DNA of 64,000 bases. Source: Escherichia coli (GTDB taxonomy: Bacteria > Pseudomonadota > Gammaproteobacteria > Enterobacterales > Enterobacteriaceae). A program made the translations under genes and the position numbers. How positions within the stretch are numbered: the first letter of the stretch is position 1; every line of letters begins with the position of its first letter. The stretch is from the NCBI RefSeq assembly GCF_003334765.1, contig NZ_QOWT01000002.1. One strand, given 5' to 3'. The notes under the pieces are model-generated. The model worked only from the letters and a program-made list of their open reading frames with translations, had not been told where the DNA came from and searched no databases. Of the stretch, positions 11,247 to 14,356 are shown piece by piece.

Positions 11247-11408
11247 TTACGCACCAATGCGCCCTTCCTTCTTAAAGCTTTCCATTACTCGCTGATAAAT
11301 CTCAGAATTAACAGACCGACCATTTTCTTCCGCCACCTTGCGTACCAAATCCAATACTTCTTTAGGCCACCGCAAATTGAACTGTGGCATTTTGCTCATT
11401 CCTTTCAT
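11247..11408 (-). CDS. arc: Arc repressor (ribbon-helix-helix)
   Basis: MKGMSKMPQFNLRWPKEVLDLVRKVAEENGRSVNSEIYQRVMESFKKEGRIGA, near-identical to P22 Arc; longer ORF 11247..11471 is an upstream in-frame extension. Confidence 0.9.
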   Translation of the reverse strand: MKGMSKMPQFNLRWPKEVLDLVRKVAEENGRSVNSEIYQRVMESFKKEGRIGA

Positions 11409-11422
11409 GTTCACCTCACAAT

Positions 11423-11443
11423 ATAGGTCCACGGTGGACCTAT
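11423..11443. promoter_or_regulatory. Mnt operator (ATAGGTCCACGGTGGACCTAT)
   Basis: Perfect palindrome matching recalled P22 Omnt. Confidence 0.75.
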
Positions 11444-11450
11444 TGAGAAT

Positions 11451-11471
11451 ATAGTAGAGTGCTTCTATCAT
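11451..11471. promoter_or_regulatory. Arc operator (ATAGTAGAGTGCTTCTATCAT)
   Basis: Matches recalled P22 arc operator within the ant promoter. Confidence 0.7.
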
Positions 11472-11498
11472 GTCAATACACTAACTTGGAGTGATGGC

Positions 11499-11753
11499 AT
11501 GGCTAGAGATGATCCGCACTTTAACTTCCGTATGCCTTTGGAAGTAAGAGAAAAATTGAAATTAAGAGCCGAGGCTAACGGAAGGTCAATGAACTCTGAG
11601 TTATTACAAATCGTTCAGGATGCACTATCAAAACCATCACCGATTACAGGATATCGCGACGAAGCTGAACGCTTGGCTGATCAGCAGGCTGAGCAGTTCA
11701 AGGCTATAGTGTTTGAGACACTTAAAAAGATTTATGAAAAGGATTTGAAATGA
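11499..11753 (+). CDS. mnt: Mnt repressor (ribbon-helix-helix)
   Basis: MARDDPHFNFRMP.EVREKLK.RAEANGRSMNSELLQIVQDALSKPSP matches P22 Mnt. Confidence 0.9.
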   Translation: MARDDPHFNFRMPLEVREKLKLRAEANGRSMNSELLQIVQDALSKPSPITGYRDEAERLADQQAEQFKAIVFETLKKIYEKDLK

Positions 11754-12085
11754 GATTTCTATCACTGTTCTTGTTAGCAGTTGTCTCTTCTTCCAGTGCT
11801 GAGCTGCGCGAGCTTCAAACGGGTAATGACCTTCTTTACAACATTCAACAAGGTAAAAAGGGTGATGATTTTTCATCGCTTTACATTACTGGATATTTGC
11901 GCGGAGTAACTGACTCATTGATACTAATTGGTTCTCTATGTCCTCCTGATGGCGTTGACATGTATCAATACACCGATATCGTTGAGAAATATCTAAACAA
12001 AAACCCAGAATCAAGAAATGAGAGTGCAGTTATACTAACCGCCCTAGCAGTAGGAAAAACATTTCCGTGCAAAAAGAATCAATAA
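11750..12085 (+). CDS. Small secreted protein (signal peptide, two Cys), unknown function; cargo gene at P22 sieA position
   Basis: MRFLSLFLLAVVSSSSA signal peptide; start overlaps mnt stop (ATGA). Confidence 0.6.
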   Translation: MRFLSLFLLAVVSSSSAELRELQTGNDLLYNIQQGKKGDDFSSLYITGYLRGVTDSLILIGSLCPPDGVDMYQYTDIVEKYLNKNPESRNESAVILTALAVGKTFPCKKNQ

Positions 12086-12100
12086 CAATAAGGGCTTAAA

Positions 12101-12490
12101 ATGAAATTGATTATAGCAATGGCTTTCCTTGTCTTCTCGTTTTCTGTCTCAGCAGAGTGCTGGGTCGTTGGAGATATGCACGGAATAAGCTATTCAGAAC
12201 GAAATAATTTTCAACCGGAAGAAGATGGTTTTAGTGGAACATTCATCATTAAGACAAACGGTGAAGATGCCAGTATCACATATTCTGGGACGGATGCGGG
12301 CGGCATGGCTTACAAAGCATTGTCTAAAAACTCCATCATTGGAATCGGCGCGAATGGCGAAACTCAACGAGTTATCGACTCATGGGTAATACATCCTAAT
12401 GGAACAGTTTTAATGTCGAAAACCATTTCTGGTTATGGGAATATGGATTCAACCAAAGCTTTTGTTGGAAAAGTAAAAAGAAAATGTTAA
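12101..12490 (+). CDS. Small secreted beta-rich protein, unknown function
   Basis: MKLIIAMAFLVFSFSVSA signal peptide; 15 bp after the previous ORF. Confidence 0.6.
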   Translation: MKLIIAMAFLVFSFSVSAECWVVGDMHGISYSERNNFQPEEDGFSGTFIIKTNGEDASITYSGTDAGGMAYKALSKNSIIGIGANGETQRVIDSWVIHPNGTVLMSKTISGYGNMDSTKAFVGKVKRKC

Positions 12491-12514: not shown

Positions 12515-14356
12515 TTACTGCTGTGTTGCCTCAGTAGCAAGCAGCGGCCTGATGGCATTTGCAGCGTTACTCAACGCTCTTTCATAGGCTGGCGTTCCAG
12601 CTTTAGTGTTTGCCAGACGTAAGAGAGCATTCCTTGCTGCTTTGGACTCATACAAACGCATCATTGCACCAAAGCCAGCCTCAAGCCCCATTGATACACC
12701 AAGAGTCGCAGTTGCGCCAATCGTCCTTATCCTGTTGGCTTGTGATTGCCCCGTCTGAGTTACTACATTTGCGGTGTCTGACCTTGCTGTTTGCTGTAGA
12801 ACTTCATGAAGAGCATCAAGCTCTTTCATGTGCTTTCCAGAAAAAATAGTGTTGTAAATTTCACCGCCTGACTGAGATTTCAGCTTATTAACTTCAGTGA
12901 TGAACTTGGCTGGAGAGTCACCGGCCTTTTCCGCTATTTTGCTGACGTAAGCTGCACGCATAGCATCTTTCCCTTTATCATCCAGGGCGCTCCATATTCG
13001 TTTCACGTCAGATGGTTTTCTGCTTAATACAACGGTATTTATAAGTTCAGGACTGGCTTCACTGCTTGCCTTGTTGAGCTTGTTAGCAATGTTTTTATTA
13101 AGCACCTTATTATAAACGTTTGCATAATCAGAATTTGCTTTAAGGTATTTTGCTGCGTCTGATGCACCGAGGTTTTTAGCAACTGCGTTACGAAGGTCTT
13201 TTGACATTGCATTCTCTACCATATTGGTAGCTGCTTTTGCCTGGTTGGGGAAGACCATAGCATCTCCCTGAACATTAGATCTAAATGCTGTTCTGTGCTG
13301 ACGCAAGAGATCAAACGTAACATCCAAATCAGTTGCAGGGTTTGCTAATTCTTCACGTAGGTTACGCAAGGATGTAAGCAGGCTTTGATTGGCAGACGTC
13401 CCAAGCCGTTCCTGTCTTGCGATCGCTGTATTCAGAGCATTCATGGTATTTGTGGTATCAACTGCGGCATTACCCATTTTATTGGTGACGTCATTGATAA
13501 CAGCGCCAGCGGCATCCTTCCGCCCCCTTAACGTGGTGGTAAGAGATTTCACCACATCATCAGGGTTGTACTCACCAAAACGGTCAAAATAATTACTTAC
13601 CAGCTTACTACGCGTTGCATATTGCTCCGCTCGCTTTGAGCCTGTCCCGAGCAAAGCCCCCTCGGCATCCTGAGTTAGGCCGCGAGTGAAAGCATTTTTC
13701 GGCGGGATAACATCAGATGTCATTGGTGTCACGCCCATCGATTCTGATGTGGCAATTTTCTTCGCCACTTCTGGCGCAATATCACCTTTTATAGCCGTTA
13801 TTCCACGCCCTATTCCCTTTGCTGCTGCGGAAAGAACACCCTGAGTGGCAAGGTTAACTCCGGCATTTTTAGCTGCATTTTGTGCGAAATCGCCTTTCTG
13901 ATTTGCGGCCTCTGCCAGTGATCCAATAGCCATGCTTCCTGCCGTTCCAACTCCTGGAACTAAATACCCACCAATTGTTTCACCGGCTTGCGCGTAGGGG
14001 TCTGTCGGTCTGTCTACTGGACGATAAACATCATCCAAAACCTTGGGTCCACCAAGCCCCTGACTGATTGCATTAATCAGACTTGCGCCGCCCTGCAATA
14101 CGTCAAATGGTATGTTTACCAGACCACGACCAGCCTGTTCTGCAATTTGCCCTGCACTTTGACCACCAGTGAGCCAATCGCCAGCTTGTTGCATCAATGA
14201 TGGTTCTTCCCGTGTTGGTGCATTATTGGCCTGATTAACTGTTTGTTGCTGAACAGCCTGACCAGCAAAATACTCATCAATGGCGGTGCCAATATCTTCG
14301 GTGCTCGTACCATCAGGAAAGGTAAATGTCTTACCGTTTGCAGTTACTTTCATCAT
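12515..14356 (-). CDS. Ejection (DNA transfer) protein, P22 gp16-like
   Basis: 613 aa, Ala/Gly/Asn/Thr-rich; position and length correspond to P22 gene 16 (synteny-based). Confidence 0.5.

What the first reader, a model, noticed from the sequence alone, without database searches (positions are those of the whole stretch)
11750..12490. Two-gene cargo cassette of secreted proteins at the P22 sieA position
Two small ORFs immediately follow mnt on the same strand (first start overlaps mnt stop), both with type-I signal peptides and not lipoproteins. In P22 this slot holds the superinfection exclusion gene sieA. These could be a periplasmic exclusion system blocking DNA entry, or an immunity-protein-like pair; the first has two Cys and a Rap1a/Tai4-like size and layout (speculative).
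Basis: inference. Interest (0 to 1): 0.65.

Follow-up and report, generated by a model that had tools for sequence, protein, structure and literature searches.

The report
Two periplasmic protection genes in prophage
A P22-like prophage in E. coli carries, where phage P22 keeps its exclusion gene sieA, two separate small exported proteins: one from a known family that neutralises cell-wall toxins injected by rival bacteria, the other a relative of the little-studied phage 434 exclusion protein Hex.

Summary
Two + strand ORFs (11750-12085, 111 aa; 12101-12490, 129 aa) follow mnt. The first overlaps the mnt stop codon (ATGA). Both have Sec-type signal peptides and no lipobox.

ORF1 belongs to the Rap1a/"Tai4a" T6SS immunity family: Pfam PF18602 E 1.3e-14, a profile hit to solved Tai4 and Rap1a, and a model whose only good PDB matches are those proteins. 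RefSeq already names it so. It is an orphan with no effector gene nearby. Six of the seven contexts read for relatives of 50-79% identity are this same slot in P22-like prophages of Escherichia, Serratia and Tatumella.

ORF2 has no Pfam or solved relative. It is an end-to-end homologue of phage 434 Hex ("heterologous exclusion" of P22) and Sf6 gp38. In related prophages it replaces sieA exactly, from the start codon, behind the P22 sieA promoter and ribosome-binding site. No SieA homologue occurs in any ORF2-bearing locus. Its model is a small soluble beta-barrel, and the family keeps a signal peptide and terminal cysteines.

The two genes are separable, not an obligate pair. Best reading: an orphan T6SS immunity gene plus a periplasmic exclusion gene, both expressed in the lysogen. 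Neither function was tested.

The parts
11443..11476 (.). Overlapping divergent promoter-like sites, the Pmnt (+) and Pant (-) equivalents
   Evidence: + strand TTGAGA-17-TATCAT (10/12) at 11443-11471; - strand TTGACA-17-TATATT (11/12) at 11476-11448. The region is 88% identical to the P22 segment that carries the annotated Pmnt, Pant and operators.
11499..11753 (+). mnt (Arc/Mnt-family repressor), first gene of the lysogen-expressed operon
11750..12085 (+). ORF1: Rap1a/Tai4a-family periplasmic protein (111 aa; signal peptide codons 1-17; Cys64 and Cys107), translationally coupled to mnt through an ATGA overlap
   Evidence: Pfam PF18602 E 1.3e-14, full length. Family profile versus PDB Tai4 1.9e-9 and Rap1a 2.2e-8. 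AF2 model pLDDT 89.9. The top 7 Foldseek PDB hits are all Rap1a or Tai4, TM 0.71-0.78. RefSeq name 'Rap1a/Tai family immunity protein'.
11955..11982 (+). Promoter-like site inside ORF1 (TTGACA-16-TATCGT), about 120 nt upstream of ORF2; a possible substitute for the lost PsieA
   Evidence: This is a consensus match only and its function is not shown.
12101..12490 (+). ORF2: Hex-family exported small beta-barrel protein (129 aa; signal peptide codons 1-18; Cys20 and Cys129), at the sieA position
12148..12152 (+). Mosaic junction inside the signal-peptide codons of ORF2. Downstream the sequence is shared (95-97% nt) with the common Emek-type allele; upstream it is specific to the ORF1-linked variant.
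   Evidence: Matches to phage Emek and to about 120 E. coli genomes begin at ORF2 nt 50. The Emek-type allele has a different signal peptide with a GTG start.
12515..14356 (-). Gene 16 (ejection / DNA-transfer protein), the convergent neighbour that bounds the slot
10300..11408 (-). ant (10300-11178) and arc (11247-11408), the other arm of immI

Best explanation
The mnt-to-gene-16 slot of this argW-integrated, P22-like E. coli prophage holds two independent accessory genes expressed in the lysogen. Both products are exported to the periplasm.

(1) ORF1 is a Rap1a/'Tai4a'-type immunity protein. It is translated by coupling to mnt from the constitutive Pmnt transcript, exported by Sec, cleaved after Ala17 and stapled by a Cys64-Cys107 disulfide. 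It most likely binds and sterically blocks a Tae4/Ssp1-type peptidoglycan DL-endopeptidase injected by a rival's type VI secretion system. That would make it an orphan immunity gene which lets the prophage protect its host.

(2) ORF2 is a Hex-family protein that takes the place of sieA. It is exported, cleaved after Ala18, and folds into a small soluble eight-stranded beta-barrel closed by a Cys20-Cys129 disulfide. It most likely excludes superinfecting phages at the envelope-crossing step, for example by interfering with the ejection-protein conduit or the wall-penetrating enzymes of P22-like phages.

Shown here: gene structure, family membership, folds, export signals, genomic position and the exact allelic swap with sieA. 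Inferred: expression, disulfides, targets and both protective phenotypes.
For: ORF1:
- Pfam Rap1a, full length.
- Profile hits to solved Tai4 and Rap1a that include both Cys.
- Model matches only Rap1a/Tai4 in the PDB.
- The family features described for Rap1a are a signal peptide, a five-helix bundle and an essential disulfide.
- S. fonticola carries two diverged Rap1a paralogues (32% identical) in tandem in the same slot, the pattern expected of immunity-gene arrays.

ORF2:
- A profile built only from ORF2's close subfamily scores 434 Hex at 72 bits, E 1.7e-18, end to end. tblastn gives 29% identity over the full length.
- hex is the gene whose loss abolishes exclusion of P22 by imm434 lysogens, and it is co-transcribed with cI in the lysogen (PMC3564112).
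- In relatives, P22 homology of 95-98% runs through orf59a and PsieA up to the start codon, and the ORF2 allele begins there.
- ORF2 abuts gene 16 in most loci where a gene 16 match was found, and it does so beside gene 16 types of 100%, about 60% and 29% identity.
- No SieA homologue occurs in 107 loci or in the window.
- Other family members sit after cI, next to an integrase, or in phage early regions.
- A signal peptide, xC[WYF] at the mature N-terminus and a C-terminal Cys occur across about 125 diverse members.
- The AF2 model is confident. Its strands are short and charged, and there is no C-terminal aromatic signal, which argues for a soluble protein rather than an outer-membrane barrel.

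Operon: Pmnt/Pant-like promoters are present and no + strand terminator-like site lies between mnt and the end of ORF2.
Against: - No function was tested.
- ORF1 has no effector or T6SS genes nearby. Six of the seven contexts read for relatives of 50-79% identity are this same mnt-coupled slot of P22-like prophages; the seventh is a Buttiauxella chromosomal islet. This looks like a long-resident phage gene rather than a recent capture from a T6SS locus.
- More distant relatives are common in freshwater phage contigs, where a T6SS role is less obvious.
- The Rap1a residue that plugs the Ssp1 active site (Gln84) aligns with Asp70 in ORF1.
- ORF2 is only 29% identical to Hex, and the exclusion phenotype of Hex is known to me only through a secondary citation.
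- The one biochemical study of Hex assigns it a cytoplasmic role, blocking RecA-stimulated repressor cleavage.
- The ORF2 fold is generic and suggests no target.
- ORF1 and ORF2 also occur together in a diverged lineage (67% and 48% identity), so some functional link cannot be excluded.
Confidence: 0.5

Rival explanations
1. Both genes serve superinfection exclusion. On this reading ORF1 is not a T6SS immunity protein but a phage-lineage periplasmic inhibitor with the Rap1a fold. It would neutralise a cell-wall hydrolase or another envelope-crossing component of incoming phages, alongside the Hex-type barrel, in the way T4 Spackle inhibits the gp5 tail lysozyme.
For: The ORF1 subfamily sits in the same mnt-coupled slot of P22-like prophages in three genera. 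The ORF1-ORF2 pair persists in a diverged lineage. Rap1a-family genes occur in many phage contigs, including DSL-LC04-like freshwater phages. Gene 16 variants in Serratia and Tatumella prophages carry an SLT wall-lytic domain.
Against: The known targets of the fold are papain-like Tae4 amidases, and no such domain was seen in the ejection proteins read here. ORF1 co-occurs with two different gene 16 types. Tandem diverged paralogues in S. fonticola fit immunity arrays better.
Confidence: 0.17
2. Both genes are orphan immunity genes, forming a small 'immunity islet'. ORF2 would neutralise an unidentified toxin that acts in the periplasm, such as a T6SS effector, a bacteriocin or a lysozyme, rather than a phage.
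Against: No family member was seen next to a toxin gene. The precise swap with sieA behind PsieA and the homology to the exclusion gene hex both point to phages. The PhiA match is no better than matches to dozens of unrelated barrels.
Confidence: 0.13
3. ORF2 works as published for 434 Hex: inside the cell it hinders RecA-stimulated autocleavage of the prophage repressor and so stabilises lysogeny.
For: In PMC3564112, hex deletion raises spontaneous induction about 30-fold in recA+ cells only. A 61-residue fragment, sHex, blocks cleavage of 434 and P22 repressors in vitro and partly complements the deletion.
Against: Nearly every family member has a cleavable signal peptide and conserved terminal cysteines. 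The N-terminus of sHex (Glu43 of the 158-aa ORF) is exactly the predicted signal-peptidase site. sHex would be about half of a single-domain barrel. The paper never considers export. In P22-like phages the gene sits in immI, replacing sieA, not next to the repressor.
Confidence: 0.08
4. The two genes are one functional unit, such as a toxin-antitoxin or effector-immunity pair, or a heterodimeric system.
For: The genes are adjacent on the same strand with a 15-nt spacer. They co-occur in about 24 E. coli genomes and in a diverged lineage.
Against: Each gene is common without the other. Neither has any toxin-like domain.
Confidence: 0.04

Closest known systems
Rap1a (Serratia marcescens SMA2260; PDB 3ZFI, 4BI8) and Agrobacterium tumefaciens Tai4 (6IJE, 6IJF): the 'Tai4a' immunity proteins against Tae4/Ssp1 peptidoglycan DL-endopeptidases
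   Same: Same Pfam family, size, signal peptide, helical fold (TM 0.71-0.78, 23-27% identity) and the two disulfide cysteines.
   Different: ORF1 is an orphan with no adjacent effector or T6SS. It is carried by a prophage and translationally coupled to mnt. The active-site-plugging Gln84 is not conserved. The target is unknown.
Phage 434 Hex and Sf6 gp38 (gene downstream of cI, on the PRM transcript)
   Same: End-to-end homologues of ORF2 with the same signal peptide, mature N-terminal ECW and C-terminal Cys. All occupy a slot expressed in the lysogen. Hex is defined genetically by exclusion of P22.
   Different: Only 29% identical. Hex lies in immC after cI, whereas ORF2 lies in immI at the sieA position. 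The published biochemical role of Hex is cytoplasmic, which the family's export signals contradict.
P22 SieA
   Same: Same genomic position and orientation (convergent with gene 16, about 22-24 nt between the stops). In many relatives the same promoter and ribosome-binding site are used. Never found together with ORF2. By inference both act on incoming P22-like phages.
   Different: No sequence similarity. SieA is a multi-pass inner-membrane protein (PMC10883804). ORF2 is a soluble exported beta-barrel.
T4 Sp (Spackle), a periplasmic inhibitor of the gp5 tail lysozyme (cited from my own knowledge; not tested here)
   Same: A small signal-peptide protein acting in the periplasm against a superinfecting phage. 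It is the nearest known way of working for a soluble periplasmic exclusion protein.
   Different: Unrelated sequence and fold, and encoded by a lytic phage. No target of ORF1 or ORF2 has been identified.
Orphan immunity genes on mobile elements, such as V. cholerae orphan immunity genes and arrays in T6SS auxiliary clusters (papers listed; Ralstonia atlas PMC11481896)
   Same: Immunity genes without a cognate effector, spread horizontally, sometimes in arrays (compare the two tandem Rap1a genes in S. fonticola).
   Different: Here the carrier is the immI region of a P22-like temperate phage, with expression tied to a phage repressor gene. I found no report of this arrangement.

Membership tests
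Rap1a / Tai4a T6SS immunity proteins (Pfam PF18602) | Significant full-length match to the family profile | tested here: met
   PF18602 i-E 1.3e-14, model positions 1-90 of 90. Family profile versus PDB: Tai4 1.9e-9, Rap1a 2.2e-8.
Rap1a / Tai4a T6SS immunity proteins (Pfam PF18602) | N-terminal periplasmic targeting signal | tested here: met
   Sequence features and 105/105 relatives pass a crude signal-peptide rule. SignalP was not run. Rap1a has a 26-residue signal sequence.
Rap1a / Tai4a T6SS immunity proteins (Pfam PF18602) | Compact five-helix fold of Rap1a | tested here: met
   AF2 pLDDT 89.9, with helices at 25-36, 40-59, 71-84, 86-88 and 93-104. The top 7 PDB hits are only Rap1a or At Tai4, probability 1.00, rmsd 2.0-3.5 A; the next hit has probability 0.38.
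Rap1a / Tai4a T6SS immunity proteins (Pfam PF18602) | Conserved cysteine pair forming the fold-stabilising disulfide (Cys78-Cys122 in Rap1a) | tested here: met
   C64 (invariant) and C107 (at least 90% conserved) align with the Rap1a and Tai4 cysteines. Formation of the bond itself cannot be tested here.
Rap1a / Tai4a T6SS immunity proteins (Pfam PF18602) | Encoded next to a cognate Tae4/Ssp1-family effector in or near a T6SS locus | tested here: not met
   The neighbours are mnt, ORF2 and gene 16. The same holds for relatives in Serratia and Tatumella. The Buttiauxella copy also has no effector nearby.
Rap1a / Tai4a T6SS immunity proteins (Pfam PF18602) | Effector-contact residues, e.g. Rap1a Gln84 that plugs Ssp1 His133 | tested here: inconclusive
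   In the profile alignment the Gln84 position is Asp70 in ORF1. Interface residues are expected to differ with specificity, so this neither supports nor excludes an immunity function.
Rap1a / Tai4a T6SS immunity proteins (Pfam PF18602) | Homodimer that binds and neutralises an amidase effector | not testable with these tools
   Needs biochemistry or competition assays.
Hex family (phage 434 Hex / Sf6 gp38; no Pfam entry) | End-to-end homology to 434 Hex in the reading frame studied experimentally | tested here: met
   tblastn 29% identity over residues 1-129, E 3e-7. A profile of ORF2's close subfamily without Hex gives 72 bits, E 1.7e-18. The frame is confirmed: the paper's 158-aa ORF equals the 134-aa ORF plus 24 residues, and Glu43/Asn103 correspond to Glu19/Asn79.
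Hex family (phage 434 Hex / Sf6 gp38; no Pfam entry) | Expressed from the prophage in the lysogen | tested here: inconclusive
   ORF2 lies downstream of mnt with no terminator-like site between them. In relatives it sits behind the P22 sieA promoter. Transcription was not measured.
Hex family (phage 434 Hex / Sf6 gp38; no Pfam entry) | Excludes a heterologous phage (P22) | not testable with these tools
   The phenotype is reported for hex via PMC3564112, citing Susskind and Botstein 1980.
SieA (P22 superinfection exclusion A) | Sequence homology to any SieA | tested here: not met
   tblastn with P22 SieA found nothing at E <= 1e-3 in 107 related loci; in the window the best match has E 1.6. 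SieA types B and C, which are under 30% identical, were not searched separately.
SieA (P22 superinfection exclusion A) | Multi-pass inner-membrane protein | tested here: not met
   After its signal peptide, ORF2 is an all-beta barrel with short charged strands.
SieA (P22 superinfection exclusion A) | Position: last gene of the mnt side of immI, convergent with gene 16 | tested here: met
   the swap is exact at the start codon, and the stop-to-stop distance to gene 16 is 22-24 nt.
Cor/Llp-type exclusion lipoproteins | Lipobox with Cys at +1 of the mature protein | tested here: not met
   ORF1 has SSA|E and ORF2 has VSA|EC, so the Cys is at +2. Most family members have AxA|xC.
Periplasmic lysozyme inhibitors (PliC/MliC, Ivy, PliI/PliG) | Profile or specific fold match | tested here: not met

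The most novel reading that the evidence does not exclude
The mnt-to-gene-16 slot of P22-like prophages is a dedicated locus for periplasmic protection. Within it, the Rap1a fold has been taken over for anti-phage use (or T6SS immunity genes and phage exclusion genes share an origin). ORF1 and the Hex-type barrel would then act together on the wall- and periplasm-crossing machinery of incoming P22-like phages. A corollary with higher probability (about 0.6) is that 434 Hex itself is a periplasmic protein, so its published cytoplasmic mechanism is at best incomplete.
Probability: 0.15. Interest if true: 0.75.

Novelty: new member of a known kind. Interest (0 to 1): 0.5.

Why it matters
If ORF1 protects lysogens from T6SS amidases, a common type of E. 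coli prophage changes the outcome of contact-dependent killing in the gut. That would be lysogenic conversion to resistance against rival bacteria, not only against phages, and a two-strain competition assay would test it.

If ORF2 excludes phages, P22-like phages have at least two unrelated solutions at one locus: the inner-membrane SieA and a soluble periplasmic barrel. That gives a second handle on how ejection proteins cross the periplasm.

The analysis also gives the long-known but poorly understood hex gene a family (179 cluster representatives at 50% identity), a fold and a probable cellular compartment. It flags a conflict with the only mechanistic paper on Hex.

At the practical level, RefSeq starts ORF2 at Met26 in many genomes, which hides its signal peptide.

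Tried and rejected
- Pfam, NCBIfam and PADLOC gave nothing for ORF2. PHROGs gave only a family of unknown function.
- PDB sequence searches with ORF2 alone and with a 132-sequence profile gave only chance-level hits.
- I considered an outer-membrane barrel, because one phage record labels a Hex homologue 'PagP'. I rejected it: the strands are 6-9 residues long and charged, the C-terminus is Lys-rich and ends in Cys with no aromatic signal, and the cysteines are conserved.
- I rejected the RefSeq start for ORF2 (Met26). It has a poor spacer, and the upstream signal-peptide segment is conserved as a feature in all relatives.
- The search for related loci with the 132-sequence alignment failed because no stretch was conserved enough. 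I used the 8-sequence alignment instead.
- My home-made signal-peptide rule has a high false-positive rate (19/76 control ORFs) and counts only as family-level support.
- Literature searches for Rap1a or Tai4 in prophages, for prophage-borne T6SS immunity, and for hex in P22-like phages found no direct precedent. The library is limited to open-access papers, and the 1980 hex paper could not be read.
- Contexts of nine Hex-family members were looked up to test for adjacent toxins, and none was found.
Full report
**Setting.** The window is an E. coli chromosome segment. It runs fadL, mlaA, yfdC and tRNA-Arg(CCU) at 5556-5630, followed by an integrase and a P22-like (Lederbergvirus, Sf6-like) prophage. 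The immI region reads: tailspike 7833-10199 (-), ant 10300-11178 (-), arc 11247-11408 (-), mnt 11499-11753 (+), ORF1 11750-12085 (+), ORF2 12101-12490 (+), gene 16 at 12515-14356 (-). The 1041-nt segment carrying mnt, ORF1 and ORF2 is 99-100% identical in 24 complete E. coli genomes.

**Observation.**
- The ORF1 ATG overlaps the mnt stop codon (ATGA), with AAGGA six bases upstream.
- ORF2 follows after 15 nt, with AAGGG six bases upstream.
- Both N-termini have a basic n-region, a 10-12 residue hydrophobic core and small residues at -3/-1 (SSA|E and VSA|E).
- Neither has a lipobox.
- In P22 the order is mnt, orf59a, terminator, PsieA, sieA, with gene 16 converging 22 nt after the sieA stop. 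ORF2 ends 24 nt before the gene 16 stop. ORF2 is therefore at the sieA position and ORF1 at the orf59a position.

**ORF1.**
- Pfam gives a full-length Rap1a match (PF18602, E 1.3e-14). RefSeq already names the gene 'Rap1a/Tai family immunity protein'.
- A 105-sequence profile of its relatives hits the solved A. tumefaciens Tai4 (E 1.9e-9) and S. marcescens Rap1a (E 2.2e-8), including both cysteines.
- The AlphaFold model (pLDDT 89.9) has Rap1a and Tai4 as its only credible PDB matches: seven chains, probability 1.00, TM 0.71-0.78, 23-27% identity. The next hit has probability 0.38.
[quoted passage not shown] The first three features are met here. The Gln84 position is Asp70 in ORF1.
- All 105 relatives carry a signal peptide, and the cysteine pair is conserved: C64 is invariant and C107 is present in at least 90%.

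**Context of ORF1.**
- The gene is an orphan, with no effector or T6SS gene nearby.
- Relatives of 50-79% identity sit in the same place: after mnt, usually with the same ATGA overlap, and before gene 16. This holds in P22-like prophages of Serratia sp. JSRIV002, S. fonticola, two Tatumella species and a diverged IMG/VR lineage. One Buttiauxella copy lies in a chromosomal islet.
- S. fonticola has a second Rap1a paralogue, only 32% identical, in tandem.
- More distant relatives (about 30-35% identity) are frequent in freshwater phage contigs and in phage DSL-LC04.
- This distribution cuts both ways. Tandem diverged copies look like immunity arrays. Long residence in one phage slot could instead mean a phage-directed function.

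**ORF2.**
- There is no Pfam, NCBIfam, PADLOC or PDB sequence match. It falls in PHROG 2651, of unknown function.
- tblastn against phage genomes found 88% identity to Emek gp14, which lies next to Emek's gene 16 homologue. It also found 29% identity over the full length to Sf6 gene 38 and to the gene downstream of cI in phage 434, annotated 'repressor protection protein'.
- That 434 gene is hex. The 158-aa ORF of Shkilnyj et al. is the 134-aa ORF with 24 extra residues, and their fragment limits Glu43/Asn103 map to Glu19/Asn79.
- A profile built only from ORF2's six closest relatives, with Hex left out, scores Hex at 72 bits, E 1.7e-18, end to end.
- According to that paper, hex is co-transcribed with cI from PRM and is required for exclusion of P22 by imm434 lysogens of Salmonella ('heterologous exclusion'). 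The authors also propose that Hex blocks RecA-stimulated repressor cleavage.

**The family is exported.**
- An exhaustive profile search found 179 cluster representatives.
- Nearly all of the 125 examined start with a signal peptide that varies in sequence but not in character. It is followed by AxA|xC[WYF], and the proteins end in G-x-V-x-G-x-C. Many have four cysteines.
- The ORF2 model is very confident (pLDDT 94.1): a signal helix followed by nine strands forming a small closed meander barrel.
- The strands are short and charged, the C-terminus is Lys-rich and ends in Cys, and the cysteines are conserved. These features argue for a soluble periplasmic protein rather than an outer-membrane barrel.
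- The N-terminus of the published 'sHex' fragment is exactly the predicted signal-peptidase site, yet the paper never mentions a signal peptide. A cytoplasmic site of action is therefore hard to reconcile with the sequence.

**ORF2 replaces sieA.**
- Among 80 IMG/VR loci with ORF2 relatives, 78 at 87-100% identity, the gene abuts the 3' end of gene 16 in most loci where a gene 16 match was found. It does so beside gene 16 types of both 100% and about 60% identity. The distance from mnt varies from 0.35 to about 2.7 kb.
- In L050 and L074, homology to P22 at 95-98% runs from orf59a through the PsieA region to exactly the start codon (P22 coordinate 3462 equals locus coordinate 4003). In L037 and L029 the last 50 nt, including AAGGAGGTTGG-GTG, are 94-96% identical to P22.
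- The coding sequence has therefore been swapped behind the same promoter and ribosome-binding site.
- No SieA homologue was found in any of 107 loci or in the window. orf59a is present in 12 loci.
[quoted passage not shown] They do not mention Hex.
- Other family members lie after a cI-type repressor, next to an integrase, in a phage early region, after a Sel1 protein, or alone on a chromosome. None lies next to a toxin gene.

**Are the two genes a pair?**
- In E. coli, ORF1 occurs in 26 of 5426 genomes and ORF2 in 147. About 24 genomes have both.
- In ORF2-only prophages the homology starts at ORF2 nt 50, inside the signal-peptide codons. Upstream of that point there is a different signal peptide with a GTG start.
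- ORF1 relatives in Serratia and Tatumella lack ORF2. There the slot next to gene 16 is empty or holds another Rap1a or small lipoproteins.
- A diverged lineage keeps both genes together: mnt 79%, ORF1 67%, ORF2 48%, gene 16 29% identity.
- I conclude that they are separable modules which sometimes travel together.

**Expression.** Pmnt- and Pant-like divergent promoters lie at 11443-11476, in a segment 88% identical to the P22 segment that carries the annotated promoters and operators. No + strand terminator-like site lies between mnt and the end of ORF2. In this variant ORF1 has displaced the PsieA region, but a promoter-like site lies inside ORF1 at 11955-11982. G+C is 0.39-0.40 across both ORFs, against 0.46-0.52 in the late genes. 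Expression in the lysogen is inferred from established knowledge of P22 immI and was not measured.

**Verdict.**
- The best reading (confidence about 0.5) is two independent periplasmic protective genes. One is an orphan Tai4a-type T6SS immunity protein coupled to mnt. The other is a Hex-family soluble barrel that substitutes for SieA as an exclusion factor.
- The main rivals are that both act against phages (0.17), that both are immunity proteins (0.13), that ORF2 stabilises the repressor as published (0.08), and that the two form an obligate pair (0.04).
- ORF1's family assignment is already in RefSeq, and hex is a known gene. As far as the searchable literature shows, three points are new. 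First, the Hex family is exported. Second, it is an allelic alternative to sieA in P22-like phages. Third, a Rap1a subfamily is a resident, mnt-coupled gene of these phages in three genera.

Noticed in passing
L003:2429-2905 (phage 434 hex); PMC3564112: The published active fragment 'sHex' begins at Glu43 of the 158-aa ORF. That residue is Glu19 of the 134-aa ORF, exactly the predicted signal-peptidase cleavage site (ANS|ECW). The paper reports toxicity of the full-length protein and never considers export. Its cytoplasmic mechanism conflicts with the signal peptide and cysteines conserved across the family.
   Followed up: partly
window 12101-12175; L002:20697-21011: RefSeq/PGAP starts ORF2 at Met26 (104 aa) in at least one genome carrying this exact allele (strain 631, L002), which removes the signal peptide. 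Other records start elsewhere: 122 aa in MNCRE44, and 129 aa with a GTG start in phage Emek.
   Followed up: yes
window about 12150: A mosaic recombination junction lies inside the signal-peptide codons of ORF2. Upstream, the ORF1-linked variant and the common Emek-type allele have unrelated signal peptides. Downstream they are 95-97% identical.
   Followed up: partly
L013:8001-8715 (Serratia fonticola prophage): Two Rap1a-family genes, only 32% identical to each other, lie in tandem between mnt and gene 16. This looks like an array of immunity genes in a phage slot.
   Followed up: partly
L134:3815-4042; L011:8379-8612; L132:8363-8827: In Tatumella prophages the position next to gene 16 holds small lipoproteins (75 and 154 aa). 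The 75-aa Cys-rich lipoprotein has a clear relative right after the Rap1a gene in a Buttiauxella chromosomal islet, which may therefore be a remnant of the same phage slot.
   Followed up: no
L005:3932-4258 (phage DSL-LC04); L111-L121: Rap1a-family genes (about 30-35% identical to ORF1) are common in freshwater phage contigs of 30-60 kb; one cluster has 201 member sequences. In DSL-LC04 the gene is labelled 'type VI amidase', which is the effector's name rather than the immunity protein's. It is unexplained why such phages carry it.
   Followed up: no
MW749009.1 56689-56883 (Bacillus phage Dartukuta): tblastn with ORF1 gave a weak hit (34% identity over 65 residues, E 2e-5) in a phage of a Gram-positive host, where no T6SS or periplasm exists.
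   Followed up: no
L010:8536-11337; L132:8844-11741; L133:8646-11429: The gene 16 homologues of Serratia and Tatumella P22-like prophages are 927-965 aa and carry an SLT lytic-transglycosylase domain that the 613-aa protein in the window lacks.
   Followed up: no
window 7142-7813 (+): Between the integrase and the tailspike lies a 223-aa hexapeptide-repeat acetyltransferase (Pfam Hexapep; Vat/CatB-like but below the curated cut-offs). It may be a surface-polysaccharide-modifying accessory gene. Strain 631 has a different small gene at this position.
   Followed up: partly
PQ850609.1 25928-26323 (phage Huey): A Hex homologue downstream of the repressor is annotated as 'PagP lipid A acylation protein'. 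This is probably a fold-based mislabel of the small barrel.
   Followed up: no
L123:1151-2207: One Hex-family member directly follows a Sel1-repeat protein in a run of small genes. Sel1 repeats are among the domains reported in T6SS immunity proteins, so this is a weak hint towards the immunity reading.
   Followed up: no
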